Shown here: piece by piece, positions 47,792 through 64,000 of the stretch
Layout of the letters: the number at the start of each line of letters is the position of its first letter
Numbering within the stretch: position 1 is the first letter of the stretch
DNA from: Patescibacteria group bacterium
GTDB taxonomy: Bacteria > Patescibacteriota > Patescibacteriia > JBAZBY01
Assembly (NCBI GenBank): GCA_041671225.1
Contig: JBAZBY010000001.1
Coordinates: forward strand, 109,963 to 173,962
Direction: 5' to 3'
Length of the DNA: 64,000 nucleotides
Made by a program: the position numbers and the translations under genes
Notes under the pieces: model-generated
The model's database searches: none
Told to the model about the DNA's origin: nothing
Seen by the model: only the letters and a program-made list of their open reading frames with translations

Positions 47792-47817
47792 TGGTCGTAC
47801 GCGTCTCCTGTTCTCGC

Positions 47818-47850: not shown

Positions 47851-47853
47851 TCT

Positions 47854-48807: not shown

Positions 48808-48959
48808 AAGGTTATTGTTCTATTTTTTTGATTCGATCTTTTGCGGTCGTGGATCTTTATTACTCTCGTGATGTATTCCGAAACTGGCCGCAAGCCCAAT
48901 CATCACTGCGATGATCGATCGTTTGATAAAACGGATAACCGCGCGAAAACAACACATAC

Positions 48960-51524: not shown

Positions 51525-51527
51525 AAG

Positions 51528-51827
51528 CTACTCCACCGGCTCACACCATGTGAAGGAATCACTACATCGCATCATACTACTCTGAAAACCTTCGGGACAA
51601 CCTGCTATGGACTGAAGCACAAAACCATTCTGCTCCATATAGTGTACAGAACTTATACAGCAACCAAAACTACTTTTTTCCAAACATTGTTTTGCGAGTT
51701 CCTTATACGCAGAAGAAATATGCGATACTTCAACTCTCTCGCTGAGATACATATCAGCATTAAACCCAGCAATAAAGACAATAAGAATTGCCAACGTGAA
51801 TAAAACTATTTTGATAATCTTATGCAT
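51528..51827 (-). CDS. Hypothetical small secreted Cys-containing protein
   Basis: 99 aa with an N-terminal signal/anchor (IVLFTLAILIVFIAG) and six Cys. Confidence 0.4.
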   Translation of the reverse strand: MHKIIKIVLFTLAILIVFIAGFNADMYLSERVEVSHISSAYKELAKQCLEKSSFGCCISSVHYMEQNGFVLQSIAGCPEGFQSSMMRCSDSFTWCEPVE

Positions 51828-52057
51828 ATCACTATGCTAGTCTTTTTTTCGGTTGTCTGCTTTTGAGAGTAAAAAAATCATGAGTCCAACAAGCGCCAAA
51901 AAAATTCCGGTGCCTATCGGCGAACCCCAGCCAAATATGGAATAGAGACTATCCATACAACATACTTAAGGATAAACAGTATTAGTGTAGCAAAATATCA
52001 TACACCAAAACAGTTGCACTTTAAGGATGTTGTGCTACTATGCCCGCTGCTGAATAC

Positions 52058-52147
52058 GGAGAGGTGCCTGAGTGGTCGAAAGGGCTTGCTTGGAAAGCAA
52101 GTGTACGAGCAATCGTACCGGGGGTTCGAATCCCTTCCTCTCCGCCA
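52058..52147 (+). tRNA. tRNA-Ser (anticodon GGA), type II
   Basis: 90 nt: acceptor GGAGAGG/CCTCTCC, anticodon stem CTTGC/GCAAG with loop TTGGAAA, a long variable hairpin GTACGAGCAATCGTAC, T-loop TTCGAAT, GCCA. Confidence 0.85.
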
Positions 52148-52208
52148 GGCCTTCGCCCCAAAGGGGCTACGGCCTGCAGACGGCACATAAATACCCAAAA
52201 GCAATACT

Positions 52209-53147
52209 ATGAAAAAAATCATCGTCACAGGAGCAACAGGGCAAATTGGCTCTGAGTTGGTTGTGGAGCTACGAAAAAAATACGGTAATGAAAACGTCGT
52301 TGCAGTGGGGTATTCTGCACCACAGCACGGTGAAGAACATGCGGGACCTTTTGCAACGGTTGATGTTACAGATGCGGCAGCGGTTACCGAACTGTTACAG
52401 CAACATAAACCAGACACTCTTTTTCATCTTGTGGGTATCCTTTCTGCAACAGGTGAAAAAGATCCTGAACTTGCCTGGAATGTGAACATAGGCGGTCTCA
52501 AAAATATATTGGATGCCGCGCGAGAACATGGAGTGAAACAGATCTTCTGGCCAAGCTCAATTGCCGCCTTTGGACCAACAACACCGCGAGACGACACGCC
52601 ACAACAAACCGTGCTCGAACCCACAACCATGTATGGCGTCACAAAAGTTACCGGGGAACTGCTTTGCCAATACTACTGGAAAAAGTATGGTCTAGATATT
52701 CGGAGTCTGCGCTACCCCGGCCTTATCAGCTACAAAACGCCGCCAGGCGGCGGCACGACAGATTATGCAGTGGCGATCTACTTTGATGCAAAACACAAGG
52801 GTTCGTATGAATGCTTTGTTGGACCAGAGACCGTGCTGCCAATGATGTATATGCCGGATGGCGTGCGTGCGACGATTGAGCTCATGGAAGCTCCGCAAGA
52901 AAAAATCAGCATACGCACGAGCTACAATCTCGCAGCGATATCCTTTTCCGCGTCAGAACTCGCTGCCTCTGTTGCGCGCCAGGTGCCGGGATTCACCTGT
53001 ACATATGCCCCTGATGAACGACAAAAGATCGCAGACTCATGGCCTCGCTCCATTGATGATAGTGCCGCAAGAAAAGACTGGAATTGGAATCATGCCTTTG
53101 ATCTGGATGCCATGACGGCTGACATGCTCGCAAACATTCCGTCATAA
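52209..53147 (+). CDS. NAD-dependent epimerase/dehydratase family protein (L-threonine 3-dehydrogenase/UDP-sugar epimerase-like)
   Basis: N-terminal Rossmann motif VTGATGQIGSEL and a YxxxK site (YGVTKVTGE); 312 aa. Confidence 0.75.
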   Translation: MKKIIVTGATGQIGSELVVELRKKYGNENVVAVGYSAPQHGEEHAGPFATVDVTDAAAVTELLQQHKPDTLFHLVGILSATGEKDPELAWNVNIGGLKNILDAAREHGVKQIFWPSSIAAFGPTTPRDDTPQQTVLEPTTMYGVTKVTGELLCQYYWKKYGLDIRSLRYPGLISYKTPPGGGTTDYAVAIYFDAKHKGSYECFVGPETVLPMMYMPDGVRATIELMEAPQEKISIRTSYNLAAISFSASELAASVARQVPGFTCTYAPDERQKIADSWPRSIDDSAARKDWNWNHAFDLDAMTADMLANIPS

Positions 53148-53245
53148 CACCCATAGAGTAGGATACTTGCCTCTGCGCATCATGCGCGCTACACTACGAC
53201 CGAAGGCATTACACAGCTAACAATCCGATCCAAAGGAGGGGCATC

Positions 53246-53752
53246 GTGATTGTTCGTACATGGAGACGTGTCGTGCGGATCATCGCTGCAGACACGATCG
53301 CGCTCGTTCTGTTCAACTGTAGCATGGGGGTGTTCAACTTCTTTGTTGAACGATACTTCGTGGGTTACCACATGGCGCAATGGGCGGGCATTCACCTGCT
53401 CTACAACATCGCGAAGTACGCGGGTGCGGGAATCTGTGGATGGATGAAACGGCGTCTCCGCCGAGCTCTTGGTGCAACGGCACCGAGCGCAACAAAGAAA
53501 GGCCGCGTGTGGTGTGCGGCCGTCGACACCGTTGCACTTGCGTGCTATCAGATCCCACTCTACATCGTGTTCGCGTTTCTCTTTGGCGCCGAATGGAGCC
53601 AGATCAGACTCGCAGTGTACTACGCGATCGCCGAGCACATCATCGGCGGCTGGTGGTATGGAGTGCTCTCTGACTGGTGCGCGCATCGGTACGTGAACCA
53701 CAAACCCGCCTCCACTGAGGCCGTTGTTCTCAAACCAGCCGCCTGCGACTAA
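53246..53752 (+). CDS. AlaE-like L-alanine exporter family membrane protein, on GC-rich segment
   Basis: Blocks resembling E. coli AlaE as recalled from memory: ADTIALVLFNCSMGVFNFF versus ADTFAMVVYCSVVNMCIEVF, and VDTVALACYQIPLYIVFAFLFGAEWSQIRLAVYYAIA versus [37 protein letters not shown]. The antisense ORF 53189-53842 is judged spurious. Confidence 0.55.
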   Translation: MIVRTWRRVVRIIAADTIALVLFNCSMGVFNFFVERYFVGYHMAQWAGIHLLYNIAKYAGAGICGWMKRRLRRALGATAPSATKKGRVWCAAVDTVALACYQIPLYIVFAFLFGAEWSQIRLAVYYAIAEHIIGGWWYGVLSDWCAHRYVNHKPASTEAVVLKPAACD

Positions 53753-53789
53753 CCCTCGCCGGCGGCTGCTTCCTCTACAAAAAACCCCT

Positions 53790-53850
53790 TGCGGGGGTAG
53801 TTGTGGGGTTCGGTCGCGAAGCGTCCGAACCCCACATTTCATGGCGAAGT
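53790..53850 (-). terminator. Rho-independent terminator (minus orientation) after the basic-protein gene
   Basis: Minus-strand hairpins GGGGTTCGGACGCTTCGCGACCGAACCCC and CCCCGCAAGGGG followed by TTTTTT. Confidence 0.5.
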
Positions 53851-53858
53851 TCTGCCCG

Positions 53859-54176
53859 TCAGACGACGAGTTGGCTCCGGATCAGACGCCCGTTGGCGAT
53901 GATGTCGGAGACGATCCCGTCGAAGCTCAACTTGTGCTTTTCCAGCACATCGGCGAACGGCTCGGCCTTCCTGCGACCGGTGTTCAACACCCTGCGCATC
54001 CGGGAATCGGAGACGCCATCATGGACGGCCACGACGAGCGGGATGAACGGCGCCCTGGCCTGCGCGGGAACGCCGTGCCTCTTCAGGAATGCCTGCGGAT
54101 TGAAGACCTTTGTCTTCGGAACCTCCCGAGCCTTCTGAGCCTTCGGAACCTTCCGGTGGGACACTTTCCTTGCCAT
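53859..54176 (-). CDS. Hypothetical small basic (Lys/Arg-rich N-terminus) protein on GC-rich segment
   Basis: Start at the internal ATG (MARKVSHRKVPKAQKAREVPKTK) with RBS GAAGGA upstream. About 105 aa, possibly nucleic-acid binding; no family assigned. Confidence 0.45.
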   Translation of the reverse strand: MARKVSHRKVPKAQKAREVPKTKVFNPQAFLKRHGVPAQARAPFIPLVVAVHDGVSDSRMRRVLNTGRRKAEPFADVLEKHKLSFDGIVSDIIANGRLIRSQLVV

Positions 54177-54460
54177 GTTGTGCTTGTCCTTCTCTGTAGA
54201 TCGGACTTCTAGGAACAATGTGCGCCAATGACAACCAGACGCACGGTTGGATAACTGCGAGGCTACACCCAAAGAGCGGGTGTTGTCAAGAAGAGGGCCG
54301 GTACACAAAATCTTTCCGCAGACCGGCTCGGCCCTCCTGCGGGGCCTCGCCTACGCTGCACACCCGCGGTCGTCAACCTATAGGATTGACAAACCAAGCC
54401 CGCGAGTGTTCGCGAGTCTGCGTCAGATTTTATACCGACCTGAAGGGGTAACGTGATTGC

Positions 54461-56896
54461 CTAACGGCGCTTTCTCTTCATCGTTTGCTTACGCGACTTC
54501 CCTTTTTTCTCCGTCTTCACAACATCGATCGTGGTCTTGATGACGGTGTCTGGATTGAGTGACATGGAATCAATGCCTTCTTCCGTGATGAAACGCGCGA
54601 TCTCCGGGTAATCACTCGGCGCCTGGCCGCAAATGCCCACCTTGCGATGCGCCTTCTTTGCGCCGCGAATGATCATGGAGAGCATCGCCTTCACCGCAGG
54701 ATTACGCTCGTCATAGATGTGCGAAACGAGCGCGCTATCGCGATCCACGCCGAGCGTGGTCTGTGTGAGGTCATTTGAGCCGATAGAGAAGCCGTCGAAA
54801 ATCTTCGCGAAGTCCTCAACAAGGATGGCATTAACCGGAAGTTCTGCCATCACATAGACTTCCAAACCATTCACGTGCTGCGTCAGGCCGTTTGCTGCGA
54901 GTGTCTTGAGGACAAGCTTCCCTTCTTCAATCGTACGGCAGATAGGAATCATCAACTTGACGTTCGTGAGGCCAAATTCTTCGCGCACGCGCTTGAGCGC
55001 CTTACACTCCATGGCAAACGCGGGGGCAAACTTCTCCGAATAATACCGTGACGCACCGCGCCAACCGAGCATCGGGTTTTCTTCTACTGGTTCGTATGCC
55101 TTACCGCCAATGAGGTTCGCGTACTCATTTGATTTGAAATCCGAGAGCCGCACGATCACATCCTTGGGGTAAAACGCCGCGGCAATCATGCCCACGCCCT
55201 CTGCGAGCTTGTCCACAAAGAACTGCTTCTTGTTTGGGTAGCCCGCCGTGATCTTTTCAATCTGACGCTTCGCCTTCGCGTCCTTCAGCCTGCTGAAATT
55301 CACCAACGCGAGCGGATGTGCCTGAATGTATGCATTGATAACGAATTCAATGCGTGCAAGACCCACACCATCATTGGGAATAAAACTTGCGGAGAACGCC
55401 TGTTCCGGACTGCCGATGTTCATCATGATCTTTGTTTTGGGGCGCGCAAGATTCTTGATGCTCGTTCTGATGATCTTATATGGCAACTCGCCCGCATACA
55501 CCTTACCCACATCTCCCTCGGAACAGGATACCGTCACTGCCTGGCCGGTCTTCACCTTCTTTGTGGCGTTGTCGGTTCCGACGATCGCCGGAATCCCAAG
55601 TTCACGGGAGACGATAGCCGCGTGACTTGTGCGGCCGCCCTTATTGGTCACGATCGCAGAAGCGATCTTCATGATGGGTTCCCAATCCGGATCCGTCATG
55701 TCGGTAATAAGCACTTCACCTTTCTTGAACTCATGAATTTTCTTTGCGGAAAGAATGATGCGCGCTTTGCCTGCGCCGATCTTTGTGCCGACAGGCGAAC
55801 CCGTGGTAAGAACCTTACCCTTCTTTTGGAGCATGTAGTCCTCCAATACGCTCGTATCCCGCTGGCTCTGCACGGTCTCCGGCCGGGCCTGCACAATAAA
55901 GAGCTCGCCGGAAATGTCCTTTGCCCATTCCATATCCATGGCCTTGCCATAATGCTGTTCGATCTGCATGGCCCACGTTGCCAAATGGAGCACTTCTTTG
56001 TCTGTGAGGCAGAACTGATAACGCTGAGCAACTGGCACGCTCACGTTCTTTGTGGGGCCGCTCTTGCCTGTGGCGTAAATCATTTTGATCTGCTTGGAAC
56101 CGAGCTTCTTCTTCAGAATCGGCTTCATACTGCGCCCGCCAGTACCTTTCTTACCGAGCGTCGGCTTGAACACATAAAACTCATCCGGGTTCACCTTGCC
56201 CTGCACAATGTTCTCGCCAAGACCGTATGCGGCGTTGATGAGTACCGCGTTCTCAAAACCCGTTTCCGTATCAATAGAGAACATGACGCCAGAAACTTCA
56301 GAATGCACCATCTTCTGCACACCAATGGATAAAGCAATGGAAAAATGGTCAAAACCTTTGTCTTCGCGATAGCTAATGGCACGATCGGTAAACAAAGATG
56401 CCATGGCCTTGCGGCACGCATCAAGAAGCGCGGTATTCCCTTGAATATTCAGGTAGGTATCCTGCTGGCCAGCAAACGACGCATCGGGAAGGTCTTCTGC
56501 GGTTGCGCTCGAGCGCACAGCTACCGCGAGATTCTTGCCATATTCCTTCTGAAGCTGAACATACGCGCCGATGATTTCCTGCTTGAGGTCATCCGGAAAC
56601 TCTTGCCTCAAAATTGCTTCACGAACAGCCACGCCATGCGCATGCAAATTCCGCACATCATGCGTGTCGAGTGTTTTTAATATGCGGCGAATTTCCTTTT
56701 TGAGTCCTGTTTTTTCCAAAAAATAACGGTAGGCCGTTGAGGTAACCGCGTAACCATCTGGAACCTTGACGCCTTTCTTCGTGAGATTGGCGTACATCTC
56801 ACCCAACGATGCGTTCTTTCCGCCGACAAGCGGTACATCTTTATTACGAAGTTCTTTAAAAAAGAGAATGAGTTTCTTTGAACGTGACGTTGGCAT
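54461..56896 (-). CDS. ppsA: Phosphoenolpyruvate synthase (pyruvate, water dikinase)
   Basis: PEP-utilizing enzyme motifs (GGRTSHAAIVSRELGIPAIVGT, the catalytic His, a C-terminal TIM barrel). Start at the ATG with RBS AAGGAG (MPTSRSKK). Confidence 0.9.
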   Translation of the reverse strand: MPTSRSKKLILFFKELRNKDVPLVGGKNASLGEMYANLTKKGVKVPDGYAVTSTAYRYFLEKTGLKKEIRRILKTLDTHDVRNLHAHGVAVREAILRQEFPDDLKQEIIGAYVQLQKEYGKNLAVAVRSSATAEDLPDASFAGQQDTYLNIQGNTALLDACRKAMASLFTDRAISYREDKGFDHFSIALSIGVQKMVHSEVSGVMFSIDTETGFENAVLINAAYGLGENIVQGKVNPDEFYVFKPTLGKKGTGGRSMKPILKKKLGSKQIKMIYATGKSGPTKNVSVPVAQRYQFCLTDKEVLHLATWAMQIEQHYGKAMDMEWAKDISGELFIVQARPETVQSQRDTSVLEDYMLQKKGKVLTTGSPVGTKIGAGKARIILSAKKIHEFKKGEVLITDMTDPDWEPIMKIASAIVTNKGGRTSHAAIVSRELGIPAIVGTDNATKKVKTGQAVTVSCSEGDVGKVYAGELPYKIIRTSIKNLARPKTKIMMNIGSPEQAFSASFIPNDGVGLARIEFVINAYIQAHPLALVNFSRLKDAKAKRQIEKITAGYPNKKQFFVDKLAEGVGMIAAAFYPKDVIVRLSDFKSNEYANLIGGKAYEPVEENPMLGWRGASRYYSEKFAPAFAMECKALKRVREEFGLTNVKLMIPICRTIEEGKLVLKTLAANGLTQHVNGLEVYVMAELPVNAILVEDFAKIFDGFSIGSNDLTQTTLGVDRDSALVSHIYDERNPAVKAMLSMIIRGAKKAHRKVGICGQAPSDYPEIARFITEEGIDSMSLNPDTVIKTTIDVVKTEKKGKSRKQTMKRKRR

Positions 56897-56950
56897 GTGT
56901 CTCCTTATATACGCAGCACACCCCCTTATAACCAAGGAGGCAATACCAGC

Positions 56951-57265
56951 TTAGATGTTGAACTTTTCTGAGAGATCAGCGATGAGGGGAAGCCGATAGA
57001 ACTTACCGGTGAACGCCTGCACAAACCCTATGATGCAGAAGATGAGCAGTGCCATGCTGTAAAGCCAGCCGATGACGAAGATCCACCACACAAATATGGC
57101 GATCAACCAGCCGATAAAAAGCACCAGGCCCTGTTTTGCATGGAACTGGGCAAACTTTGAGTCGCGCTTGAGGAGCATGGGAAGAAGAAAGAGGATACCG
57201 ACATAGGAGAGCGCGGCGATAACGCGATTCTCGTCAATGTCCTTGCTGTTATTGAGTTCTGGCAT
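56951..57265 (-). CDS. DUF4870-like small membrane protein
   Basis: 104 aa; pattern AALSYVGILFLLPMLLKRDSKFAQFHAKQGLVLFI. Confidence 0.5.
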   Translation of the reverse strand: MPELNNSKDIDENRVIAALSYVGILFLLPMLLKRDSKFAQFHAKQGLVLFIGWLIAIFVWWIFVIGWLYSMALLIFCIIGFVQAFTGKFYRLPLIADLSEKFNI

Positions 57266-57279
57266 ATGTATTTTATTAA

Positions 57280-57762
57280 TTATTTCCCTCCTTTGGAGGA
57301 TTGTTGTGATTGTTGTTTGGCTATGCGCTTTTCTTTTCGTTGCTTGATGAGCTGAACGGCAACGGCAGTGATAAGTGCGCCAAGGAGTGCGGTGATGACT
57401 GGTTCTGCAATGAGATTGAGAATGAAGTATGCGGCACGTTCATAGACCAGACGGAAAATGGCCATGCCGAGTCCAGCAAGAAACCCTGCCACGGCTCCCA
57501 ATGCTACTGCGCGCTGTGCCGTCAGGTCCTTCACTGTCCCGACAAGATAGAGAAAGAGCGCAATGTGGAACAACCAGACAACCGCATTAAGTCCAATGAG
57601 AATATAGAGCACCATCTCCGCAATGACAGCTGCGAGCACGGGAATACGCACAAGCTGAAAGTATCGCGAGAGCGTCCAGCCGGAGATGACGGCCTCGTTC
57701 TGCTCTTGCGCTTTCTGCTCTCGCGCCTCGTGCTCAAGATCACGCATTGGTTCCATGTGCAT
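57280..57762 (-). CDS. Hypothetical membrane protein
   Basis: 4 TM helices and a Lys/Gln-rich C-terminus; the start is uncertain between MHMEP and MEP. Confidence 0.45.
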   Translation of the reverse strand: MHMEPMRDLEHEAREQKAQEQNEAVISGWTLSRYFQLVRIPVLAAVIAEMVLYILIGLNAVVWLFHIALFLYLVGTVKDLTAQRAVALGAVAGFLAGLGMAIFRLVYERAAYFILNLIAEPVITALLGALITAVAVQLIKQRKEKRIAKQQSQQSSKGGK

Positions 57763-57805
57763 AGTATACCAAAAACTGAGGCACTGTGCATTGTCCCCCC
57801 GCACA

Positions 57806-57842
57806 CAACCAAAAACCCCCACCGTGAGGTGGGGGTTTTCTT
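57806..57842 (-). terminator. Rho-independent terminator after the RRM-protein gene
   Basis: AAAAACCCCCACC-GTGA-GGTGGGGGTTTT is a symmetric hairpin flanked by A and T runs. Confidence 0.65.
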
Positions 57843-57860
57843 AAACACGTTTATTCGCGA

Positions 57861-58130
57861 TTAGTCGCGACGTGGTCTGTCGGTTTGTGGGCGTGCCTCG
57901 TTTACGACGAGCGCGCGACCATCAAATTCCTTACCGTTCAGCTTTTCTACAGCTGCCTGCGCTTCTTCTTCAGTTGCCATTTCCACGAAGCCGAATCCGC
58001 GTGAGCGGCCGGACATGCGGTCCTGGACAACCTGCGCAGATTCTACGGTGCCTGCTTCGGCAAAGAATTGCCCAAGCGTAGCATCATCCGCAGAATACGG
58101 AAGGTTACCGACGTAGAGCTTCTTAGCCAT
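57861..58130 (-). CDS. RRM-domain RNA-binding protein
   Basis: Start at the internal ATG (MAKKLYVGNL). RNP-2 is LYVGNL and RNP-1 is RGFGFVEM, followed by an Arg-rich tail. Confidence 0.8.
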   Translation of the reverse strand: MAKKLYVGNLPYSADDATLGQFFAEAGTVESAQVVQDRMSGRSRGFGFVEMATEEEAQAAVEKLNGKEFDGRALVVNEARPQTDRPRRD

Positions 58131-58324
58131 ACGTCCATTTTGACTTACCTTGTTAAACTGCACTCTACTTTCGGGAGACCACTCCTCTAACTAGACTGCG
58201 CGGCTATACTAGCAGAATACCCAAAATAAAGCAAGGGGGTGGGTAGTAGGGCATATTCCTTGACGCCGCTCTTGCCTTCCGCTACAGTGACGCCGCTCTT
58301 TCTCTCTCACGCTGGAGGTGATTC

Positions 58325-58714
58325 GTGGGAACGGCTCTCATCGTCCTGCTTTCCCTGATCCAGATCGCGTTCGGATGCGTCATCATCCGCGCATACAAGA
58401 ATGCACGCAACGAGAACATCATCCTTGCATTCGAGAGGCGCGTGGGCTACGGCAGGACGGACGAGATGCGTTACGATGCGCTCTACGGCCTGGCGTGCGC
58501 CTCGTTCTACGCGCTCGTATCCTGTCTCGTTGCAGGAGCCTTGTACCTCATCTTCGGAAAACCCGAATTCTGGTACATGGCGTGCAGTATCGGATGGTGG
58601 TTCGCTGTCTGGGTGACCTGCCTCATCCTGCGCATGCGCGGCAGGGACCTCTACCAGTACGTGATCTACGGGCCTGAGGGCTCATTCGCGGAACGTCTCT
58701 GCGAGATCCAATAG
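58325..58714 (+). CDS. Hypothetical small membrane protein on GC-rich segment
   Basis: GTG start with RBS GGAGG 9 nt upstream; 129 aa with 3-4 TM helices. Confidence 0.45.
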   Translation: MGTALIVLLSLIQIAFGCVIIRAYKNARNENIILAFERRVGYGRTDEMRYDALYGLACASFYALVSCLVAGALYLIFGKPEFWYMACSIGWWFAVWVTCLILRMRGRDLYQYVIYGPEGSFAERLCEIQ

Positions 58715-58861
58715 TAGCGCAACGTGCGCTGCACTCCCCAACTCCTTCGCCGACCCGACTCCGGGTCGGCCTTTATATGTATTAAAAATCTTTGCTGCCG
58801 CGCCTTTTCACAAGAGCCAATGGCACTGTTTTTTATATCGCGTCATACGTATACTGAGCAT

Positions 58862-59752
58862 ATGAATCCAACGCTCGGACTCCTTGCAGCATTCGGCGCA
58901 TTCCTTTCTTGGGGAATCGGTGATTTCGCCATCCAGCGTTCTGCGCGCGCCGTCGGCTCTATGGCGGCATTGTTTGGCATCACTGCATTCGGTGCCATCG
59001 TGCTCTTTCCTTTTGCAGCACCGCATCTTTCCGCGGTCTTCCATAGCGCATACCTGCTCGGGCTGCTATTGTTGACCGTACTCGTCACACTCTTTGCCGC
59101 CGTGTTCGAATTTGAAGCGCTCAAAAAGGGAAAAATAGCCGTCATTGAGCCCATTATGTGTCTTGAACTTGTTGTGACCGTCGGCATCAGCGTCGTTCTG
59201 CTCCAAGAGAAGGTCACTACCGTGCAGTTTCTTTTAATGGCACTGATTTTCTCCGGCATTCTCCTCACTGTCATCCGTCACGAGCCGCGTCACTGGTGGG
59301 GCTGGTGGAGAAAAAAACGCCGCTTGGAGCGCGGCGTGCTTCTTGTGCTGCTCGGTGCCTTTACCATGGGTATAACGAACGTCGTCACGGGACGTTCCAG
59401 TCAGGAAACTGACCCCGTAACCGCAATCTGGTTCATCCATACCAGTCTTGCTCTCATCTGTCTCATTTGGTTCATCATGAACCGCAACACGCACACTGTA
59501 ATGCGCGAAATTCGCATCCATTGGCGCCCCGTGCTTGCGGAGGGCGTGTTTGACAATGCTGCCTGGCTTTCCTATGCCGCGGCAGTCACCTACTTCCCCA
59601 TCTCCATCACGAACGCCCTCACGGAGGGCTATATCGTGCTCGCATCGGTGCTCGGGATCATCTTCAATAAAGAACGCGTGCAAAAGCATCAAGCGATGGG
59701 GATGGTGATCACCATCATCAGCGCCATCGTGCTGGCAGCGATCTCGGGGTAA
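58862..59752 (+). CDS. EamA/DMT-superfamily transporter
   Basis: Start at the internal ATG (MNPTLGLLAAFGAFLSWGIGDF); 10 TM helices arranged as two EamA repeats. Confidence 0.65.
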   Translation: MNPTLGLLAAFGAFLSWGIGDFAIQRSARAVGSMAALFGITAFGAIVLFPFAAPHLSAVFHSAYLLGLLLLTVLVTLFAAVFEFEALKKGKIAVIEPIMCLELVVTVGISVVLLQEKVTTVQFLLMALIFSGILLTVIRHEPRHWWGWWRKKRRLERGVLLVLLGAFTMGITNVVTGRSSQETDPVTAIWFIHTSLALICLIWFIMNRNTHTVMREIRIHWRPVLAEGVFDNAAWLSYAAAVTYFPISITNALTEGYIVLASVLGIIFNKERVQKHQAMGMVITIISAIVLAAISG

Positions 59753-59859
59753 GCCTAAACATTCATGCATCACCGGCGCATTGACAAATGCTGCGTTGTG
59801 ATGTAATTTCTCCTGTCCCTCACTTCCGGTAATTGTCCAAAACGAGAGGAGTCTCAAAT

Positions 59860-60117
59860 ATGATCCTTCGAGGGAAGTCCAAGGAGACAAAAGCCAGGGA
59901 TTACCTGGCAACGCTTGCCGAGATGATGGCGCTCGCACGGGAGTTTATGCCGGAAGCATCGGAGGATGCAATCCGTACCGTGGCACTCAAGCTCTCCGAT
60001 GTTGCGTCGCGTCTCGATGAGGAGAAGTTCCGTCTCACGCAGCAGCGCATGGGAGTGCAGCTGATCGGCCAGCTCGCGCCGCTCGCGATCGCCCTGGCGG
60101 CGATCCTCAAGTCGTGA
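59860..60117 (+). CDS. Hypothetical small protein (85 aa), GC-rich array member 1
   Basis: ATG with RBS GAGAGGAG upstream and a terminator 60149-60190 downstream. Confidence 0.45.
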   Translation: MILRGKSKETKARDYLATLAEMMALAREFMPEASEDAIRTVALKLSDVASRLDEEKFRLTQQRMGVQLIGQLAPLAIALAAILKS

Positions 60118-60148
60118 GCGGCACGCGCCCGCCCTTGTACCTCTTTCC

Positions 60149-60190
60149 GCCCCGGTGCCAACCCCGGGGCGTGTCTTTTTTATTACGCAC
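60149..60190 (+). terminator. Terminator hairpin with conserved tail motif (CCCCGGGGCGTGTCTTTTTTATTACGC)
   Basis: Hairpin CCCCGGTGCCAACCCCGGGG followed by a T-run. The 27-nt tail is nearly identical to 62585-62611. Confidence 0.55.
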
Positions 60191-60212
60191 GATGTTGTCA
60201 TCCATTACACTG

Positions 60213-60242
60213 CTTGACGTGCCGTTTTGATATTGCTAATGT
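60213..60242 (+). promoter_or_regulatory. Candidate sigma-70 promoter for the lipoprotein gene
   Basis: TTGACG, a 17-nt spacer, then TAATGT, located about 40 nt upstream of the ATG at 60282. Confidence 0.4.
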
Positions 60243-60281
60243 CGCAGCGCCATACTTCCGTGGCAGAACAAGGAGGAACGC

Positions 60282-60737
60282 ATGAAACGTGCGTCTCGCA
60301 CTCTGGTGCTCTTTCTTTCCCTGGCTATGGTGATCTGCGTCGCCGGGTTCTCCGGTTGCGGCAGGGGCGACGTCCACGTGGCCTCCGCCGCACAGGACTC
60401 GTCGCAGGTCCGATTCTTCCAAGGGGAACACCAGCTGGTTCCCTTCAACAACGACCCGAACTGCGGGTACGTCTCCTTCGACGGAAGCACATACCGGTTC
60501 TACTGGCGGAACAACAACACGGGTTCGGATTTCGCCGCGAGTTTCGCCCCACACGAAGTCTCCTTCGTCACCAACGAAATGATTCCGGCTCCCTTGTGCG
60601 AATTCCGTTGGAACAAGAGCTCCGACTTCAAGGAGTATGACTGGCGCATCTACGCCACGAGGGTGTTCATCAGCGGCAAGGCGGAGCACATCATCGTCGA
60701 GCCGAAGATGCAATTCGCACCCTTGGGAGCGCTCTAG
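60282..60737 (+). CDS. Hypothetical lipoprotein (151 aa), GC-rich array member 2
   Basis: RBS AAGGAGG, a signal peptide with lipobox-like AGFSGC, and no family match. Confidence 0.55.
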   Translation: MKRASRTLVLFLSLAMVICVAGFSGCGRGDVHVASAAQDSSQVRFFQGEHQLVPFNNDPNCGYVSFDGSTYRFYWRNNNTGSDFAASFAPHEVSFVTNEMIPAPLCEFRWNKSSDFKEYDWRIYATRVFISGKAEHIIVEPKMQFAPLGAL

Positions 60738-60813
60738 GCATAGTTCGCGCACGAAGCAATCCAGGACGTCTGGACTGCAGACAAACACGAGACACGCTGA
60801 GGAGGATCGCTGA

Positions 60814-61134
60814 ATGCAACGGGAAACGCTCATTGAGGCCATTCTGAAGGAGATGCGGGGACGCATCACGGCGGAGGCCAATCTCTTCAATCTCTCGCTT
60901 GGGCTCGACGACGAGCTGATCGATCTGGGCAGGACGGTCTGCCCCGAAGGCACCACGATGCCCGGCATGGAAGATCTCGATGATGTTGGCTCTCCCGAGG
61001 AGCTCGCGGACGCCATCATCGCGGCCAACCCGCAGTGGGCCGAGGAGGAGGTTACAGAGAACCTCGATGAGACCCACGTCGTCTCCGCATCCAATGGTGG
61101 GGAGGAGCCGGCTCCGGACGAAAGCCTGAAGTAG
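60814..61134 (+). CDS. Hypothetical acidic protein (106 aa), GC-rich array member 3
   Basis: RBS GAGGAGG; a highly acidic protein; terminator 61166-61212 downstream. Confidence 0.5.
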   Translation: MQRETLIEAILKEMRGRITAEANLFNLSLGLDDELIDLGRTVCPEGTTMPGMEDLDDVGSPEELADAIIAANPQWAEEEVTENLDETHVVSASNGGEEPAPDESLK

Positions 61135-61165
61135 GCCGCCACTCCGCAGTGGCCACATTGCACAT

Positions 61166-61212
61166 ACCGCATCGCTCGCCGCCGCGCCTTCTCACGAGGG
61201 CCGGCGGCGCAA
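61166..61212 (+). terminator. Rho-independent terminator
   Basis: CGCCGCCG...CGGCGGCG stem followed by CAACTTTTTTATA. Confidence 0.55.
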
Positions 61213-61255
61213 CTTTTTTATACCACAAAATTATCGCCTTCCAGACATTGCCTGC

Positions 61256-61555
61256 TTACTGCACGTTCTTCATCCCGCCGAGAAACAGCCGGATCCCCAA
61301 GCGAAGCAGGAGATAATAACAAAAATACGCAGCAGCCCAGGCCATGACCGTATACAGCACGGTCAAAAAAATCACGGCAACTACTTCCCGAGCAGTGGGG
61401 CCGCCGTTGCTGTATCCAAGTCCATCAAACGCGATGATGATCGGAATAGCGAGCGTGATCAACCACACTACAAACCACCCGACGATGCGGTACGCGCGGT
61501 ATCCCATTTTCTTCATGAGTTTTTCGTGGACCTGCTTATTAAGAAAAAGTGTCAT
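61256..61555 (-). CDS. Hypothetical small membrane protein
   Basis: 99 aa with 2-3 TM helices; it is the only minus-strand gene within the GC-rich array. Confidence 0.45.
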   Translation of the reverse strand: MTLFLNKQVHEKLMKKMGYRAYRIVGWFVVWLITLAIPIIIAFDGLGYSNGGPTAREVVAVIFLTVLYTVMAWAAAYFCYYLLLRLGIRLFLGGMKNVQ

Positions 61556-61719
61556 ACCTCTTGTATCGTACGTTAGGCTGTCATATTACGACAGCTTTCA
61601 TTTTAACATAAAACCGGGGCGAGGCCTTCGATTCCGGAATGATTTTTGTACCCCATGCATTGACAGTACATACCCGGCATGATAAGAGAACCACGGTCCT
61701 TTGAGAGAAAGGTGGACAC

Positions 61720-62049
61720 ATGACCACACGCAACAAGCGTACCAGAAGGGGCGTGCCACGGCCTGGCGCGTTCACCCTTCCACGTCGGGTGTACGTATCA
61801 GAACGGGAAGAAGGGCTAGCGCTGGCACTCAAAGCTGCAAGTTGCTACGTGCCACTCATCGGCCGACCTCCCGACGAGCACACCACGTTTGGAGAACTCG
61901 GGATGTCCACGGCTTCGAAAAGGGCGCTCGCGCTGGAAATAGCGGAGCACCTCAGAAAGAAGTCATCTGTGGAGGTGACCCTCAACGTCCCCATGGGGGA
62001 TGCAGTGTCCCTCGGCCAGTTCGTGGACACGATCATAGCGCTGCCCTGA
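61720..62049 (+). CDS. Hypothetical protein (109 aa), GC-rich array member 4
   Basis: RBS AAAGGTGGA and a basic N-terminus. Confidence 0.45.
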   Translation: MTTRNKRTRRGVPRPGAFTLPRRVYVSEREEGLALALKAASCYVPLIGRPPDEHTTFGELGMSTASKRALALEIAEHLRKKSSVEVTLNVPMGDAVSLGQFVDTIIALP

Positions 62050-62088
62050 AACGCAGGGCCGCATGTGCATCCGCAGAAAGGAGAGACG

Positions 62089-62535
62089 ATGAACGACGAA
62101 CTTGTACGGCACATGAGAGTGGTCATCTCGCACCTGCTCAGCGATGTGGCGACCGGAGTGCGGCAGTGGGAGCGCCTGTTTGTCACACAACTCCGGGCTG
62201 CGGAGGGAAACATCGATACCTCCGCATCGGACGAGGGCCCTTCTGACCCCTCCAACGCGGAGATGGCGCGCATCGGTGCTGAGTTTGAACAGAAGGGGGC
62301 AATGCCGCGCTCCACCCGCCGCGATCTGCTGCAGATCCGCGCAAGCGCCATGGTCAGCGAGGTGCTGCGGGAGATTCCGCGCCCGTCGCGCGACATTCCA
62401 CCTGGTGACACGGCACAGCGGGAGCGATTCCTGCGCTTCCGTGTCCTGCGCGTGATCCTTATCACGGCACTCACGTTCATTCTGGAGGATGCGGAAACGC
62501 CGCCTCCCACAGAAGGTGGCAGCCCGGAAGCCTAG
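62089..62535 (+). CDS. Hypothetical protein (148 aa), GC-rich array member 5
   Basis: Internal ATG with RBS AAAGGAGAG; terminator 62559-62612 downstream. Confidence 0.45.
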   Translation: MNDELVRHMRVVISHLLSDVATGVRQWERLFVTQLRAAEGNIDTSASDEGPSDPSNAEMARIGAEFEQKGAMPRSTRRDLLQIRASAMVSEVLREIPRPSRDIPPGDTAQRERFLRFRVLRVILITALTFILEDAETPPPTEGGSPEA

Positions 62536-62558
62536 TGCTTCTGGAATGCCCAAAAAAC

Positions 62559-62612
62559 ACGCGCCCCGAGGTTCTCCATGAGGACCCGGGGCGTGACTTT
62601 TTATTACGCGAG
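62559..62612 (+). terminator. Terminator hairpin with conserved tail motif (ACCCGGGGCGTGACTTTTTATTACGC)
   Basis: Hairpin CGCCCCGAGGTTCTCCATGAGGACCCGGGGCG followed by a T-run; the tail matches 60160-60188. Confidence 0.55.
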
Positions 62613-62714
62613 GGATATTGACATACAAGCATTCCTGTGCTAGAAAGACCGGTCGTATTTTGCAGGCTCATGTTCCCCTGCATATGCGACGGCTCTCTTG
62701 AAAAGGAGTGTTCC

Positions 62715-63008
62715 ATGCGACATCGTGATGGGAAGCGCTACGTCCGCCACGGGCGAATCGAGGGGCTCGACGAGCTCCTCAAACAGATTGCTGGCTGGCC
62801 CGAGGTGAAAAAGGTCATCTCCGGGCAGATCCGCAACACCGGCGGAAGCGGCGGCGGCCATGGGCTCGTCATTCGCGTCCAGCGCGAAGAGCAGGGCAGG
62901 CTCAAGTGCGTGGCAAGCCACAACAGCCAGCACCAGGACCTCACCATCATCACCGGCTGCCCCGGCCGCATCGCGGAGCGCATCCGCGCCCAGGCCTGGG
63001 GAAAGTAA
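62715..63008 (+). CDS. Hypothetical protein (97 aa), GC-rich array member 6
   Basis: Internal ATG with RBS AAAAGGAG; protein MRHRDGKRYVRHGRIEGLDELLKQIAGWPEVKK... Confidence 0.4.
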   Translation: MRHRDGKRYVRHGRIEGLDELLKQIAGWPEVKKVISGQIRNTGGSGGGHGLVIRVQREEQGRLKCVASHNSQHQDLTIITGCPGRIAERIRAQAWGK

Positions 63009-63198
63009 CCCCAAAACCCGCCGGCAGAACGTCGGCACAAACCTCCAAAAAAAGGAGCGTGTCGTGCGAAGACACTAACTACGGTCGAGCCCTCGGGCCC
63101 GGCCGTTTTCCCTTACACAAAAACTCCACACCCTGCCCGCCTACGCCTTGCGGAGATGGGTGCACTCCACTTTGAAACACACCGAGCTACTTTCAACG

Positions 63199-63759
63199 CT
63201 AATTGTGAATTAAATCCGCAAAATCAATAATCGCCTTAACAATCTGAGCTATATCCGTTGCGCCGGACATAAAATCTCGAAGTTTTTCCAACTTACCTTT
63301 TCGCACTGGATCATCTGTCGTTGCAATCTGCTTATCAATCTCACCTACTAACAATGCAACATTTACAGTTGCCTCCGCATGAGCAATATTTGTGATAAAA
63401 GAATTACCTTGAACCTCTTGAGGAATGGGCTCCCGTATATCTTCCATAAGAATTATTAGGCTATCAAGATTACCATTAATTTCATGAAAGCCTTCACCAA
63501 GAGAATACACTGTATACTCAATTCTTGTCAGCAATTTTCCCTTATCACATTCCTGAACAAATTGATTATTTGCAGCTCCAATAGCCGCGGATTGATAGGA
63601 CTTAAATCCTCTTTCCTGTGTCTTTTCAAACTCAGATGCTCTGCTGCGAACGTCACGAAGTCGCGCAAGTGCAGCACGATGGTTTTTCTTCGCAGCGCGA
63701 TACTTCATTTCTGTTGCTGTTTTTTTGGGAAATCGGGCGTAAGGAATGTTACGTATCAT
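63199..63759 (-). CDS. Hypothetical protein (186 aa) on AT-rich segment
   Basis: Local GC is clearly lower than in its neighbours; no motifs recognised. Confidence 0.45.
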   Translation of the reverse strand: MIRNIPYARFPKKTATEMKYRAAKKNHRAALARLRDVRSRASEFEKTQERGFKSYQSAAIGAANNQFVQECDKGKLLTRIEYTVYSLGEGFHEINGNLDSLIILMEDIREPIPQEVQGNSFITNIAHAEATVNVALLVGEIDKQIATTDDPVRKGKLEKLRDFMSGATDIAQIVKAIIDFADLIHN

Positions 63760-63799
63760 ATATTTGTGTGTGAATAACTCATTTAATGATAAGTGTTAT

Positions 63800-64000
63800 A
63801 GTTTATCCGTAGTCCATTGGGACTCCCTCAACGCCTTTACTTGTCAGCGATTAGTGCCGGGTTCTATCCTCAAGCACGTAACGCTGGCCTGGTTTTGGGG
63901 TGGGCGGTAAACGCTCACCCTGAACGGAGGTAACCTCATCCCGCGTACCAACTAAACGGTACTGGCCGGAAACGGGCACTCGCTCCCCAGGGCGAAAAGT
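63800..64000 (-). ncRNA. rnpB: Probable RNase P RNA (bacterial type A), 3' portion; the 5' part lies beyond the window end
   Basis: Minus-strand reading contains GATAGAACCCGGC (P4 3'-strand consensus ACAGARCCCGGCUUA), GCTTGAGG, a P15-like GGTACG and a GGGTGAGCG...CCGCCCACCC hairpin, matched from memory against E. coli M1 RNA. Confidence 0.4.

What the first reader, a model, noticed from the sequence alone, without database searches (positions are those of the whole stretch)
59760..63180. GC-rich array of six small, separately promoted and terminated + strand ORFs that share a terminator-tail motif
This ~3.4-kb segment is visibly GC-richer (about 58-62%) than the ~50% window average. It holds six small + strand ORFs of 85-151 aa, each with a strong SD, and each followed by a hairpin plus T-run on the + strand. 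The tails of two terminators (60160-60188 and 62585-62611) are nearly identical over ~27 nt, CC(C)GGGGCGTG-N-CTTTTTATTACGC, which extends past the T-run. A related tail lies at 47836-47850. None of the proteins matches a family I recognise: one lipoprotein, one very acidic protein, several basic ones. The segment is followed by an AT-rich gene (63199-63759). This pattern fits a horizontally acquired multi-cassette region, for example an immunity-like or accessory gene array, or an unknown small-protein system.
Basis: partly seen in the sequence, partly recalled or inferred. Interest (0 to 1): 0.6.

Follow-up and report, generated by a model that had tools for sequence, protein, structure and literature searches.

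The report
Shuffled small-gene units in CPR bacterium
This is a fast-rearranging patch of small, lineage-specific genes, many of them membrane or secreted, in an ultra-small (Patescibacteria) bacterium, and the shared "terminator tail" is a scar left when gene units were duplicated and moved, so it is a tidy case of local genome shuffling and not a new kind of system.

Summary
Region 59760-63180 is 58.3% GC against 49.6% for the rest of the window. There are four transcription units, not six: o1 | o2-o3 | o4-o5 | o6. Each has a TTGAC(A/G)-N17-TA promoter and an intrinsic terminator.

The genome is a Patescibacteria MAG. A single relative (L085; the neighbouring EamA transporter is 89% identical) carries five of the six genes. 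Their dN/dS is 0.28-0.52, and for four of the five dS is about 0.5, the same as EamA, so those four at least are inherited protein-coding genes. The units sit in a different order in the relative.

There, the o1 terminator abuts the o6 promoter. In the window that junction is split and about 43 nt of it is present twice (60163-60204 and 62585-62627). The o5 terminator is a chimera of an o5-type left arm and an o1-type right arm. A second scar, a decayed copy of the o3 terminator, lies upstream of EamA.

No integrase, transposase, phage or defence family matched. o6 is DUF2103. o2 belongs to a sparse family of small proteins, most with an N-terminal hydrophobic segment and Cys, and no significant structural match. 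Protein functions remain unknown. Verdict: an ordinary but instructive variable accessory region.

The parts
58260..58288 (+). Promoter-like site (TTGACG-N17-TA) upstream of p129
   Evidence: Pattern scan. Five of the 17 such sites in 147 kb of strand lie at 58260-62618 on the + strand.
58325..58714 (+). p129: small membrane protein with GC3 0.79. It belongs to the same class of GC3-rich lineage-specific units and is followed by its own terminator hairpin at 58749-58770.
   Evidence: The L085 orthologue is 61% identical with dN/dS 0.40.
58794..58837 (+). Decayed copy of the o3 terminator (T3 remnant) just upstream of EamA. It marks where the o2 unit used to sit.
   Evidence: the repeat finder family D1. 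SW score 33 against a shuffle maximum of 27, 0 of 1000. Folding energy is -7.7 against -28.2 kcal/mol for the intact T3. In L085 the intact o2-T3 sits at this position.
58862..59752 (+). EamA/DMT transporter. Conserved flank used as the synteny anchor.
   Evidence: Pfam EamA 4e-29. 89% identical to L085 with dN/dS 0.10.
59781..59809 (+). Promoter P1 (TTGACA-N17-TAATTT) for o1
   Evidence: The intergenic region is 87% identical to L085, with a 36-nt exact run starting at 59757.
59860..60117 (+). o1: 85-aa basic protein with a C-terminal transmembrane segment (residues 65-83)
   Evidence: The L085 orthologue is 46% identical with dN/dS 0.37 and dS 1.26.
60148..60181 (+). T1: intrinsic terminator of o1 (8-bp all-GC stem plus T6)
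   Evidence: -17.9 kcal/mol.
60163..60204 (+). Repeat copy A: right arm of T1, T-run, ATTACGC tail and a decayed o6-promoter -35 box (TTGTCAT)
   Evidence: score 42, 0 of 1000 shuffles. Alignment A1.
60214..60242 (+). Promoter P2 (TTGACG-N17-TAATGT) for o2-o3
   Evidence: Promoter plus leader is 95% identical to L085.
60282..60737 (+). o2: 151-aa putative lipoprotein with a small beta-barrel-like domain
60814..61134 (+). o3: 106-aa very acidic protein (pI 4.1), apparently co-transcribed with o2 and absent from L085
   Evidence: No terminator or promoter lies between o2 and o3.
61177..61219 (+). T3: intrinsic terminator of the o2-o3 unit
   Evidence: -28.2 kcal/mol. 91% identical to the terminator after o2 in L085.
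61256..61555 (-). m: 99-aa membrane protein with 2-3 transmembrane segments, on the opposite strand.
   Evidence: The L085 orthologue is 58% identical.
61660..61688 (+). Promoter P4 (TTGACA-N17-TAAGAG) for o4-o5
   Evidence: Similarity to L085 starts just upstream of the -35 box.
61720..62049 (+). o4: 109-aa basic soluble protein with an Arg-rich N-terminus
   Evidence: Its only homologue in 5.8 billion proteins is in L085 (80% identical). dN/dS 0.28.
62089..62535 (+). o5: 148-aa acidic protein with a C-terminal transmembrane segment. The 39-nt spacer to o4 is 100% conserved in L085.
62560..62602 (+). Chimeric terminator after o5: left arm and loop are o5-type (T5), right arm and T-run are o1-type (T1)
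   Evidence: -31.1 kcal/mol.
62585..62627 (+). Repeat copy B: T1-type right arm, T-run, ATTACGC tail and the intact o6-promoter -35 box (TTGACAT)
   Evidence: It runs on into promoter P6 and the o6 leader and matches L085 from about 3011 to the o6 start codon in one piece (score 143).
62618..62646 (+). Promoter P6 (TTGACA-N17-TAGAAA, with TG one base upstream of the -10 hexamer) for o6
   Evidence: The leader has a 41-nt exact match to L085.
62715..63008 (+). o6: 97-aa very basic protein (pI 10.6), DUF2103
   Evidence: Pfam PF09876, 1.3e-10, 41.5 bits against a cutoff of 22.4. Orthologues are 73% (L085) and 53% (L090) identical.
63082..63109 (+). T6: hairpin plus a weak T-tract after o6
   Evidence: L085 has a hairpin with a different stem sequence at the same place, followed by the same TTTCCCTT tail.
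63199..63759 (-). AT-rich 186-aa gene between the array and groEL, with no family match
   Evidence: L085 has an unrelated AT-rich 289-aa gene at the same position.

Best explanation
The segment is a lineage-specific variable accessory region in a roughly 1-Mb Patescibacteria (CPR) genome. It lies between a conserved EamA transporter gene and groEL.

It consists of self-contained transcription units, each running from a sigma-70-type promoter (TTGAC(A/G)-N17-TA) to a GC-rich intrinsic terminator:
- o1
- o2-o3
- o4-o5
- o6
- the inverted gene m
- p129, upstream of EamA

The products are small, fast-evolving proteins. Four of the seven in the array look membrane-bound or secreted:
- o2 is a putative lipoprotein.
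- o1 and o5 each have a C-terminal transmembrane segment.
- m is a polytopic membrane protein.
- o3 is a very acidic soluble protein.
- o4 and o6 are basic soluble proteins.

Shown: the genes are real and are mostly inherited from the ancestor shared with the one known relative. The units have been reshuffled since that split.

Inferred: the shared '27-nt terminator tail' is not a common regulatory motif. It is a duplicated junction. The ancestral o1-terminator/o6-promoter junction, still contiguous in the relative, is present twice in the window and flanks the 2.4-kb block o2-o3-m-o4-o5. The likely cause is recombination or template switching between the paralogous o1 and o5 terminator hairpins, which share a CCCCGGGG core. 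That would give a duplication followed by loss of the redundant copies. A second duplication scar, the decayed T3 upstream of EamA, records the move of the o2 unit.

My best guess at biological role is envelope-associated accessory functions, such as surface or host interaction. This is speculation from predicted localisation only.
For: Organism and reproducibility:
- NCBI names the proteins MAG Patescibacteria, on a 1.03-Mb contig.
- The sequence is identical in an ENA 601-kb contig and was recovered by exact protein match on a Logan contig.

The genes are real:
- Reading frames are conserved between the window and L085, with dN/dS 0.28-0.52 against 0.10 for EamA.
- dS is 0.46-0.54 for o2, o4, o5 and o6, against 0.49 for EamA.
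- o2 has remote homologues with invariant F/F/G/H/P/F/W/F/W/W columns and a confident AF2 core.
- o6 passes the Pfam DUF2103 threshold.

Transcription units:
- Four TTGAC(A/G)-N17-TA sites lie 56-97 nt upstream of the start codons of o1, o2, o4 and o6. With the p129 site they make five of the 17 such sites in 147 kb of strand.
- Promoter and leader segments are 86-100% identical to L085, while synonymous sites differ by 34-38%.
- Terminators follow only o1, o3, o5 and o6.

Rearrangement:
- The order in L085 is p129, x147(-), o2, EamA, o1, o6, m(-), x137(-), x100(-), o4, o5, x87, x99, x176, x289(-), groEL.

Scar 1:
- The L085 o1-terminator/o6-promoter junction aligns on its left with window 60145-60195 (score 60) and on its right with window 62582 to the o6 start codon (score 143).
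- The two window copies align over 43 nt (score 42, 0 of 1000 shuffles).
- In copy A the -35 box is degraded (TTGTCAT).
- The left arm of the o5 terminator aligns with the L085 o5 terminator, while its right arm carries the o1-type GGGGCGTG-N-C before the T-run and the TTACGC tail.
- In L085 the o1 and o5 terminators share most of the hairpin (about 32 of 39 aligned positions), so a recombination substrate exists.

Scar 2:
- The decayed T3 copy lies exactly where o2-T3 sits in L085.

The motif is not generic:
- Among about 66 hairpin-plus-T-run candidates in 74 kb, only these two share it.
Against: - Only one close relative exists, so the direction of the changes cannot be polarised. The relative, not the window, could carry the derived order.
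- The duplication-and-loss path needs at least three events and is a reconstruction, not an observation.
- The first 26 nt of the repeat are a terminator arm plus T-run. These are functionally constrained, so some similarity could be convergent.
- o1 and m have much higher dS than their neighbours. This hints at allele replacement by recombination and not simple vertical descent.
- No protein function is demonstrated. The envelope-role statement rests on hydropathy and a lipobox-like pattern only.
- High GC3 relative to groEL and uvrA (0.67-0.84 against about 0.6) remains unexplained.
- Promoters and terminators are sequence predictions. There are no transcript data.
Confidence: 0.66

Rival explanations
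1. The shared tail is a functional cis-element, for example a protein-binding site, an UP-like element or an insulator between a terminator and the next promoter. On this reading it is kept at two sites by selection and is not a rearrangement scar.
For: - The tail is conserved between the window and L085: (A/G)TTACGC after the T-run.
- Non-coding promoter and leader DNA in this region is generally under strong constraint.
- Another terminator, at 29573 on the - strand, ends TTTTTTTTATTGACGC, with the T-run running straight into a -35-like box.
Against: - Both copies trace to one ancestral junction that is contiguous in L085.
- Copy A continues into a degraded copy of the o6 -35 box, which has no reason to be there other than descent.
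- None of the other roughly 60 terminator candidates in 74 kb carries the motif.
- Spacing from the tail to the next -35 box differs between the two copies.
Confidence: 0.15
2. The region is a recently acquired mobile cassette array: an integron-like or island-borne set of cassettes moved by a site-specific recombinase, with the terminator hairpins acting as attC-like sites.
For: - Atypical GC and GC3.
- Modular units whose order differs between two close genomes.
- Breakpoints fall at or next to hairpins.
- Unrelated AT-rich genes are inserted at the same spot next to groEL in both genomes.
- Genomic islands are reported to be common in Patescibacteria (PMC12455944).
Against: - No integrase, transposase or recombinase domain is on record or found from 33 to 74 kb.
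- Units carry their own conserved promoters, and one unit is inverted.
- The hairpins are 24-36 nt, GC-rich, and followed by T-runs, as intrinsic terminators are.
- For o2, o4, o5 and o6, dS equals that of the flanking EamA, so they pre-date the split from L085.
- There are no PHROG hits.
Confidence: 0.1
3. The units are conflict modules: toxin-antitoxin, immunity or anti-phage pairs such as o4-o5 and o2-o3, with the DUF2103 protein o6 as an effector.
For: - The genes are small, fast-evolving and lineage-restricted, sit in a variable region, and include two bicistronic pairs with opposite charge.
- L085 has a MazG gene inserted in the array.
Against: - No PADLOC, PHROG, NCBIfam or PDB sequence match for any ORF.
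- No paralogy among the proteins.
- No toxin-like domain.
- The o6 homologue in L090 sits alone next to an ORF that looks like SAM synthetase (MetK; read from the sequence only).
- The DUF2103 link is a literature lead for a distant homologue, not a test.
Confidence: 0.1
4. The arrangement, or the ORFs themselves, are artefacts. Either the assembly is chimeric at the repeated terminators, or these are spurious ORFs in GC-rich DNA and the true genes lie on the opposite strand.
For: - Long antisense ORFs exist: 60198-61172 (324 aa), 61963-62628 (221 aa) and 62640-63038 (132 aa).
- The ENA annotation of the identical sequence calls a 184-aa and a 132-aa gene on the opposite strand, over the o2 and o6 regions.
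Against: - An ENA contig is identical over 10.8 kb, and a Logan contig and the NCBI/JGI record carry the same proteins in the same order.
- Exact shared runs in the repeats are at most 12 nt, shorter than typical assembler k-mers (my assumption about k).
- The + strand frames show dN/dS below 1, carry SD sites and keep conserved promoters in L085.
- o2 and o3 are not adjacent in L085, so the 324-aa antisense ORF cannot be conserved.
Confidence: 0.03

Closest known systems
Strain- or lineage-specific variable regions (plasticity zones, genomic islets) in bacterial genomes, including the genomic islands reported in Patescibacteria (PMC12455944)
   Same: - Atypical composition.
- Hypothetical small genes.
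- Gene content and order differ between close relatives while the flanks (EamA, groEL) stay fixed.
- Unrelated AT-rich genes are inserted at the same spot in the two genomes.
   Different: - No mobility genes, no tRNA attachment site and no island-flanking repeats.
- Most genes are as old as the flanking core gene (same dS).
- The variation comes mainly from internal shuffling of intact promoter-to-terminator units.
Integron gene-cassette arrays
   Same: - Short single-gene modules.
- Mostly one orientation.
- Each module ends in an imperfect palindrome.
- Module order differs between genomes, and breakpoints fall at the palindromes.
   Different: - No IntI integrase or attI.
- Units have their own promoters, whereas integron cassettes are generally promoterless (own knowledge).
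- The palindromes are GC-rich intrinsic terminators with T-runs, much shorter than typical attC sites.
- One unit is inverted.
Duplications and rearrangements by recombination between short dispersed palindromes such as REP/BIME elements (own knowledge, not checked in the literature here)
   Same: - Paralogous GC-rich hairpins downstream of genes serve as short homology for unequal exchange.
- The result is a hybrid hairpin at the novel junction, as in the chimeric o5 terminator.
   Different: - Only two or three related hairpins are seen in 74 kb.
- There is no evidence for a genome-wide repeat family.
- The homology tract is very short (15 nt exact in L085).
Pfam DUF2103 (PF09876), for o6 only
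   Same: o6 scores 41.5 bits against a gathering cutoff of 22.4 over residues 19-81. The L090 homologue also passes the threshold.
   Different: - o6 is a minimal 97-aa single-domain protein.
- It has only two Cys, so the 'metal-binding' label is doubtful for it.
- The family has no demonstrated function.

Membership tests
Integron cassette array | Adjacent IntI tyrosine recombinase and attI site | tested here: not met
   No integrase or recombinase Pfam family on record or found for genes between about 33 and 74 kb.
Integron cassette array | Promoterless cassettes in one orientation, expressed from a common Pc promoter | tested here: not met
   Four units have their own TTGAC(A/G)-N17-TA sites that are conserved in L085. 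Gene m is inverted.
Integron cassette array | attC site with conserved R''/R' core sites at each cassette end | not tested
   No attC model was available. The hairpins are 24-36 nt, GC-rich and followed by T-runs, which fits terminators.
Rho-independent (intrinsic) terminator | GC-rich stem-loop immediately followed by a T-run, downstream of a stop codon | tested here: met
   Met after o1, o3 and o5 (-17.9, -28.2 and -31.1 kcal/mol, each with a run of 5-6 T). Weaker after o6 (TTTT). Not met after o2 or o4. Function was not measured.
Genomic island (horizontally acquired) | Atypical base composition and codon usage | tested here: met
   58.3% against 49.6% GC. GC3 is 0.67-0.84 against about 0.49 (1-46 kb) and about 0.60 (local neighbours).
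Genomic island (horizontally acquired) | Mobility genes, a tRNA or other attachment site, and island-flanking direct repeats | tested here: not met
   No mobility genes. The nearest tRNA (Ser) is at 52058-52147. The direct repeats found are internal to the array.
Genomic island (horizontally acquired) | Presence/absence polymorphism among relatives, with divergence different from the flanking core genes | tested here: inconclusive
   Absent from relatives at 53-58% EamA identity. Present in L085 with dS equal to EamA for o2, o4, o5 and o6, but higher for o1 and m. o3 and the AT-rich gene are window-specific.
Pfam DUF2103 (o6) | Score above the Pfam gathering threshold | tested here: met
   41.5 bits against 22.4, E = 1.3e-10.
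Bacterial lipoprotein (o2) | Signal peptide followed by a lipobox with an invariant Cys | tested here: inconclusive
   Hydrophobic segment at residues 8-26, followed by a lipobox-like FSGC. The Cys is conserved in L085 and in most remote homologues. No dedicated predictor was available, and Phe at -3 is atypical (own knowledge).
Anti-phage defence, toxin-antitoxin or immunity array | Match to a known defence, toxin or immunity family, or an array of paralogous immunity genes | tested here: not met
   PADLOC gave no hit for the window proteins, and PHROGs and NCBIfam gave only hits far below any threshold. No paralogy.
Dispersed palindromic repeat family (REP/MITE-like) | Many copies genome-wide | not testable with these tools
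   Only 74 kb of the roughly 1-Mb genome could be read. Within it, only the o1 and o5 terminators are related.

The most novel reading that the evidence does not exclude
The paralogous GC-rich terminator hairpins (CCGCCCCG...CGGGGCG plus a T-run) could be more than accidental homology. They could be the working recombination sites of an integrase-independent module-shuffling mechanism in streamlined CPR genomes. Such a mechanism would move whole promoter-gene-terminator units, which is a cassette system whose 'att' site doubles as the transcription terminator. It would make this locus a generator of diversity in small envelope proteins.
Probability: 0.1. Interest if true: 0.6.

Novelty: new member of a known kind. 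Interest (0 to 1): 0.3.

Why it matters
- It shows, at nucleotide resolution, how a streamlined CPR genome with no visible mobile-element machinery still reshuffles accessory genes. Breakpoints fall at terminator hairpins and promoter edges, so every surviving unit stays expressible.
- It adds several well-supported but uncharacterised small-protein families of Patescibacteria. These include a family of small proteins with a confidently predicted beta-rich core (most members having an N-terminal hydrophobic segment and Cys) and a minimal DUF2103 protein. A group of organisms in which most small genes are unannotated needs such families.
- It is a caution for annotation. One public annotation of the identical DNA calls antisense ORFs in this GC3-rich stretch.
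- It does not reveal a new kind of system.

Tried and rejected
- **Genome-collection scan with PPDK as anchor.** The best hits were only 55-66% identical and came from many phyla. None of those loci carried the array genes.
- **Metagenome scan with EamA.** Nothing found.
- **Metagenome scan with the o2 family alignment.** It had no usable conserved stretch.
- **Metagenome scan with o6.** One distant locus, L090.
- **Viral-contig scan with the o2 family.** No relatives.
- **Family and sequence searches for all ORFs.** Pfam, NCBIfam, PHROGs and PADLOC gave only one hit above threshold, DUF2103 for o6. PDB sequence searches for o2, o4, o5 and o6 gave nothing significant.
- **Rfam over 57.8-64 kb.** Only sub-threshold noise outside the array.
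- **AF2 of o6 without an alignment.** pLDDT 40.7, so unusable and no fold search was run.
- **A suspected third scar.** An ACAAAA-type tail shared by the o3-m and o6-downstream spacers was not supported (912 of 1000 and 784 of 1000 shuffles score as well).
- **An orphan hairpin upstream of o2 in L085.** It resembles the L085 o5 terminator tail only marginally (8 of 1000).
At chance level.
- **Paralogy among the array proteins.** None.

Full report
**What is there**

Region 59760-63180 is 58.3% GC, against 49.6% for the rest of the window. It is the GC-richest 3.4-kb stretch of the window (sliding mean 50.0%, sd 2.3%).

It holds six + strand ORFs:
- o1 59860-60117
- o2 60282-60737
- o3 60814-61134
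- o4 61720-62049
- o5 62089-62535
- o6 62715-63008

Their GC3 is 0.67-0.84, and AGGAG-type ribosome-binding sites can be read.

Two public annotations of the same DNA call exactly these genes. A third, from ENA, calls antisense ORFs over o2 and o6. This shows how ambiguous gene calling is in GC3-rich DNA.

The proteins:
- o1 is basic with a C-terminal transmembrane segment.
- o2 has an N-terminal hydrophobic segment followed by FSGC, which looks like a lipobox.
- o3 is very acidic (pI 4.1).
- m has 2-3 transmembrane segments.
- o4 is basic and soluble.
- o5 is acidic with a C-terminal transmembrane segment.
- o6 is very basic (pI 10.6).

**Source and surroundings**

NCBI labels the proteins as from a MAG of the Patescibacteria group, on a 1.03-Mb contig. 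An ENA contig is 100% identical over 53199-64000 and extends past the window end.

Upstream lie PPDK, a MamF-like protein, an RRM protein, p129 and an EamA transporter. Downstream lie an AT-rich gene (63199-63759, - strand, GC3 0.30), then groEL-groES, uvrA and uvrC.

No integrase, transposase or recombinase domain is on record or found anywhere from about 33 to 74 kb. The nearest tRNA is 7.6 kb away.

The GC contrast is real but graded. GC3 averages roughly 0.49 (my estimate from the per-gene values) for genes in 1-46 kb. It is about 0.60 for neighbours such as pyruvate kinase, PPDK, groEL and uvrA. It is 0.67-0.84 for the six ORFs. A few other small hypothetical genes are equally extreme: p129 at 0.79, 53859-54308 at 0.75 and 46778-47791 at 0.73.

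**Transcription units**

Only o1, o3, o5 and o6 are followed by a hairpin plus T-run. After o2 there is a short hairpin without a T-run. The o4-o5 spacer is 39 nt with no terminator.

A TTGAC(A/G)-N17-TA pattern lies 56-97 nt upstream of the start codons of o1, o2, o4 and o6, and one also lies upstream of p129. These are five of only 17 such sites in 147 kb of strand.

So there are four + strand units, not six: o1 | o2-o3 | o4-o5 | o6. Promoters and terminators are sequence predictions, and I have no transcript data.

**The one close relative**

Searches of 5.8 billion proteins with o4 and o5 found a single homologue each, on one 9.5-kb Logan contig, L085.

L085 encodes orthologues of the following:

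| Gene | Identity to window |
|---|---|
| p129 | 61% |
| EamA | 89% |
| o1 | 46% |
| o2 | 64% |
| m | 58% |
| o4 | 81% |
| o5 | 65% |
| o6 | 73% |

There is no orthologue of o3.

dN/dS is 0.10 for EamA and 0.28-0.52 for the small genes. dS is 0.46-0.54 for o2, o4, o5 and o6, the same as EamA at 0.49. These four are therefore real protein-coding genes present in the common ancestor, evolving fast under relaxed purifying selection. o1 (dS 1.26) and m (saturated) are more diverged, which may reflect allele replacement.

Promoter and leader DNA is 86-100% identical between the two genomes, although synonymous sites differ by 34-38%. The o4-o5 spacer is identical, and the o6 leader has a 41-nt exact run.

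Relatives whose EamA is 53-58% identical carry none of the ORFs. A 53%-identical o6 homologue sits alone next to an ORF that looks like SAM synthetase on a 330-kb contig.

**Different order, and what the 'tail' is**

The two genomes order the units differently:
- L085: p129, x147(-), o2, EamA, o1, o6, m(-), x137(-), x100(-, MazG), o4, o5, x87, x99, x176, x289(-, AT-rich), groEL.
- Window: p129, EamA, o1, o2, o3, m(-), o4, o5, o6, AT186(-), groEL.

In L085 the o1 terminator runs straight into the o6 promoter:
...CCGCCCCGCGGCTTCGGCCCCGGGGCGCGTCTTTTTTGTTACGCACGAAGTATTGACAT...

In the window this junction is split.
- The left part, including the whole hairpin, the tail and a degraded -35 box (TTGTCAT), follows o1. 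It aligns with L085 at score 60.
- The right part, from the right hairpin arm through the o6 leader, follows o5. It aligns with L085 at score 143.
- The two window copies align with each other over about 43 nt, 60163-60204 against 62585-62627. The score is 42 against a shuffle mean of 15.9 and maximum of 30, 0 of 1000.

The o5 terminator is a chimera. Its left arm aligns with the L085 o5 terminator. Its right arm has the o1-type GGGGCGTG-N-C before the T-run and the TTACGC tail. In L085 the o1 and o5 terminators are themselves close paralogues, with about 32 of 39 aligned positions identical and a 15-nt exact core GCTTCGGCCCCGGGG. A substrate for unequal recombination or template switching therefore exists.

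The simplest reading is this. An exchange between the o5-type and o1-type terminators duplicated the segment, and the redundant copies were then lost or replaced. That left the junction in duplicate around the 2.4-kb block o2-o3-m-o4-o5. This path is inferred and needs several events. With only one relative, the direction of change cannot be proven.

**A second scar supports the same process**

Just upstream of EamA, at 58794-58837, lies a decayed copy of the o3 terminator.
- It scores 33 against a shuffle maximum of 27, 0 of 1000.
- It folds at -7.7 kcal/mol, against -28.2 for the intact terminator.
- In L085 the intact o2 gene and this terminator occupy exactly that place.

So the o2 unit was copied downstream of o1 and the source copy was deleted up to its terminator.

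**Is the motif generic?**

No. Among about 66 hairpin-plus-T-run candidates in 74 kb, only these two share it.

**What the proteins are**

- o6 passes the Pfam DUF2103 threshold, at 41.5 bits against 22.4. One paper treats DUF2103-like domains as putative effector domains and mentions a link to type III CRISPR-Cas (PMC12065111). That is a lead, not a test.
- For the rest, nothing matched above threshold in NCBIfam, PHROGs, PADLOC or PDB sequences.
- The proteins are not paralogues of each other.

Because four of the seven are predicted to be membrane-bound or secreted, I guess at envelope-associated accessory roles. That is speculation.

**Verdict**

The 'acquired cassette or immunity array' reading is only partly supported.

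The region is a variable accessory patch of lineage-specific small genes. It has been reshuffled as intact promoter-to-terminator units, and the shared terminator tail is a duplication scar. This is a new example of a known kind of thing. It gives a clear view of rearrangement in a genome that has no visible mobile-element genes in the 41 kb examined.

Noticed in passing
window 63199-63759 (- strand); L085 7193-8062 (- strand): In both genomes the slot between the array and the 3' end of groEL holds a strongly AT-rich gene (GC 39.9% and 34.5%, GC3 about 0.30). The two genes are unrelated to each other and match no family. This looks like a recurrent insertion spot for foreign DNA.
   Followed up: partly
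window 62650-62690 (o6 leader); 62050-62088 (o4-o5 spacer); 60211-60281 (o2 promoter and leader): Non-coding leaders are far more conserved between the window and L085 than synonymous sites: a 41-nt exact run, 39 of 39, and 71 of 75 identical, against about 36% synonymous differences. The o6 leader folds into a hairpin (z = -1.7). There was no Rfam match. These may be regulatory RNA or protein-binding elements.
   Followed up: partly
window 63049-63078; L085 about 3461-3486: Downstream of o6 and just before its terminator there is a strong SD followed by a four-codon mini-ORF (GTG CGA AGA CAC TAA). L085 has ATG CGA AGA CAA TAA at the same place. It resembles o6's own ribosome-binding site and start (repeat finder family D10, 80%). 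It could be a remnant of a partial o6 duplication or a small regulatory ORF.
   Followed up: no
window 60198-61172, 61963-62628, 62640-63038 (all - strand): Long antisense ORFs (324, 221 and 132 aa) overlap the real genes, because GC3-rich coding DNA lacks stops on the opposite strand. The ENA annotation of the identical sequence calls a 184-aa and a 132-aa gene on the opposite strand, over the o2 and o6 regions, and omits o4. These are probable mis-annotations.
   Followed up: yes
window 1-46600 vs 46700-64000 and the next 9.7 kb (L083 1-9759): There is a step in composition. Genes in 1-46 kb have GC3 of about 0.49 (rough average). From 46.7 kb onward core genes (pyruvate kinase, PPDK, groEL, uvrA) sit near 0.60, interspersed with AT-rich genes at 0.30-0.46. 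The more distant relatives of the EamA locus are 54-58% GC. The cause is unknown.
   Followed up: partly
window 58838-58864; L085 1694-1720: The EamA start codon has no SD. It lies 6 nt after a TATACT -10-like hexamer, directly downstream of the (remnant) T3 T-run, in both genomes. The mRNA may be leaderless, with a promoter overlapping the upstream terminator.
   Followed up: no
window about 29558-29600 (- strand): A terminator, GGGGCGGATCTCTGATCCGCCCC followed by T8, runs directly into ATTGACGC, a -35-like box for the next gene (28757-29509, - strand). This is a very compact terminator-promoter junction similar in style to the o1/o6 junction.
   Followed up: no
L085 3880-4592 (- strand): The relative has a two-gene insert, a MazG-family pyrophosphohydrolase plus a 137-aa protein, between m and the o4 promoter. 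The window genome lacks it within the 74 kb examined. The relative also has four other genes here with no counterpart in the window (x147, x87, x99, x176).
   Followed up: partly
window 59860-60117 (o1) and 61256-61555 (m): o1 and m have much higher synonymous divergence from L085 (dS 1.26 and saturated) than their neighbours (about 0.5). This suggests that these two units were replaced by more distant alleles through recombination.
   Followed up: no
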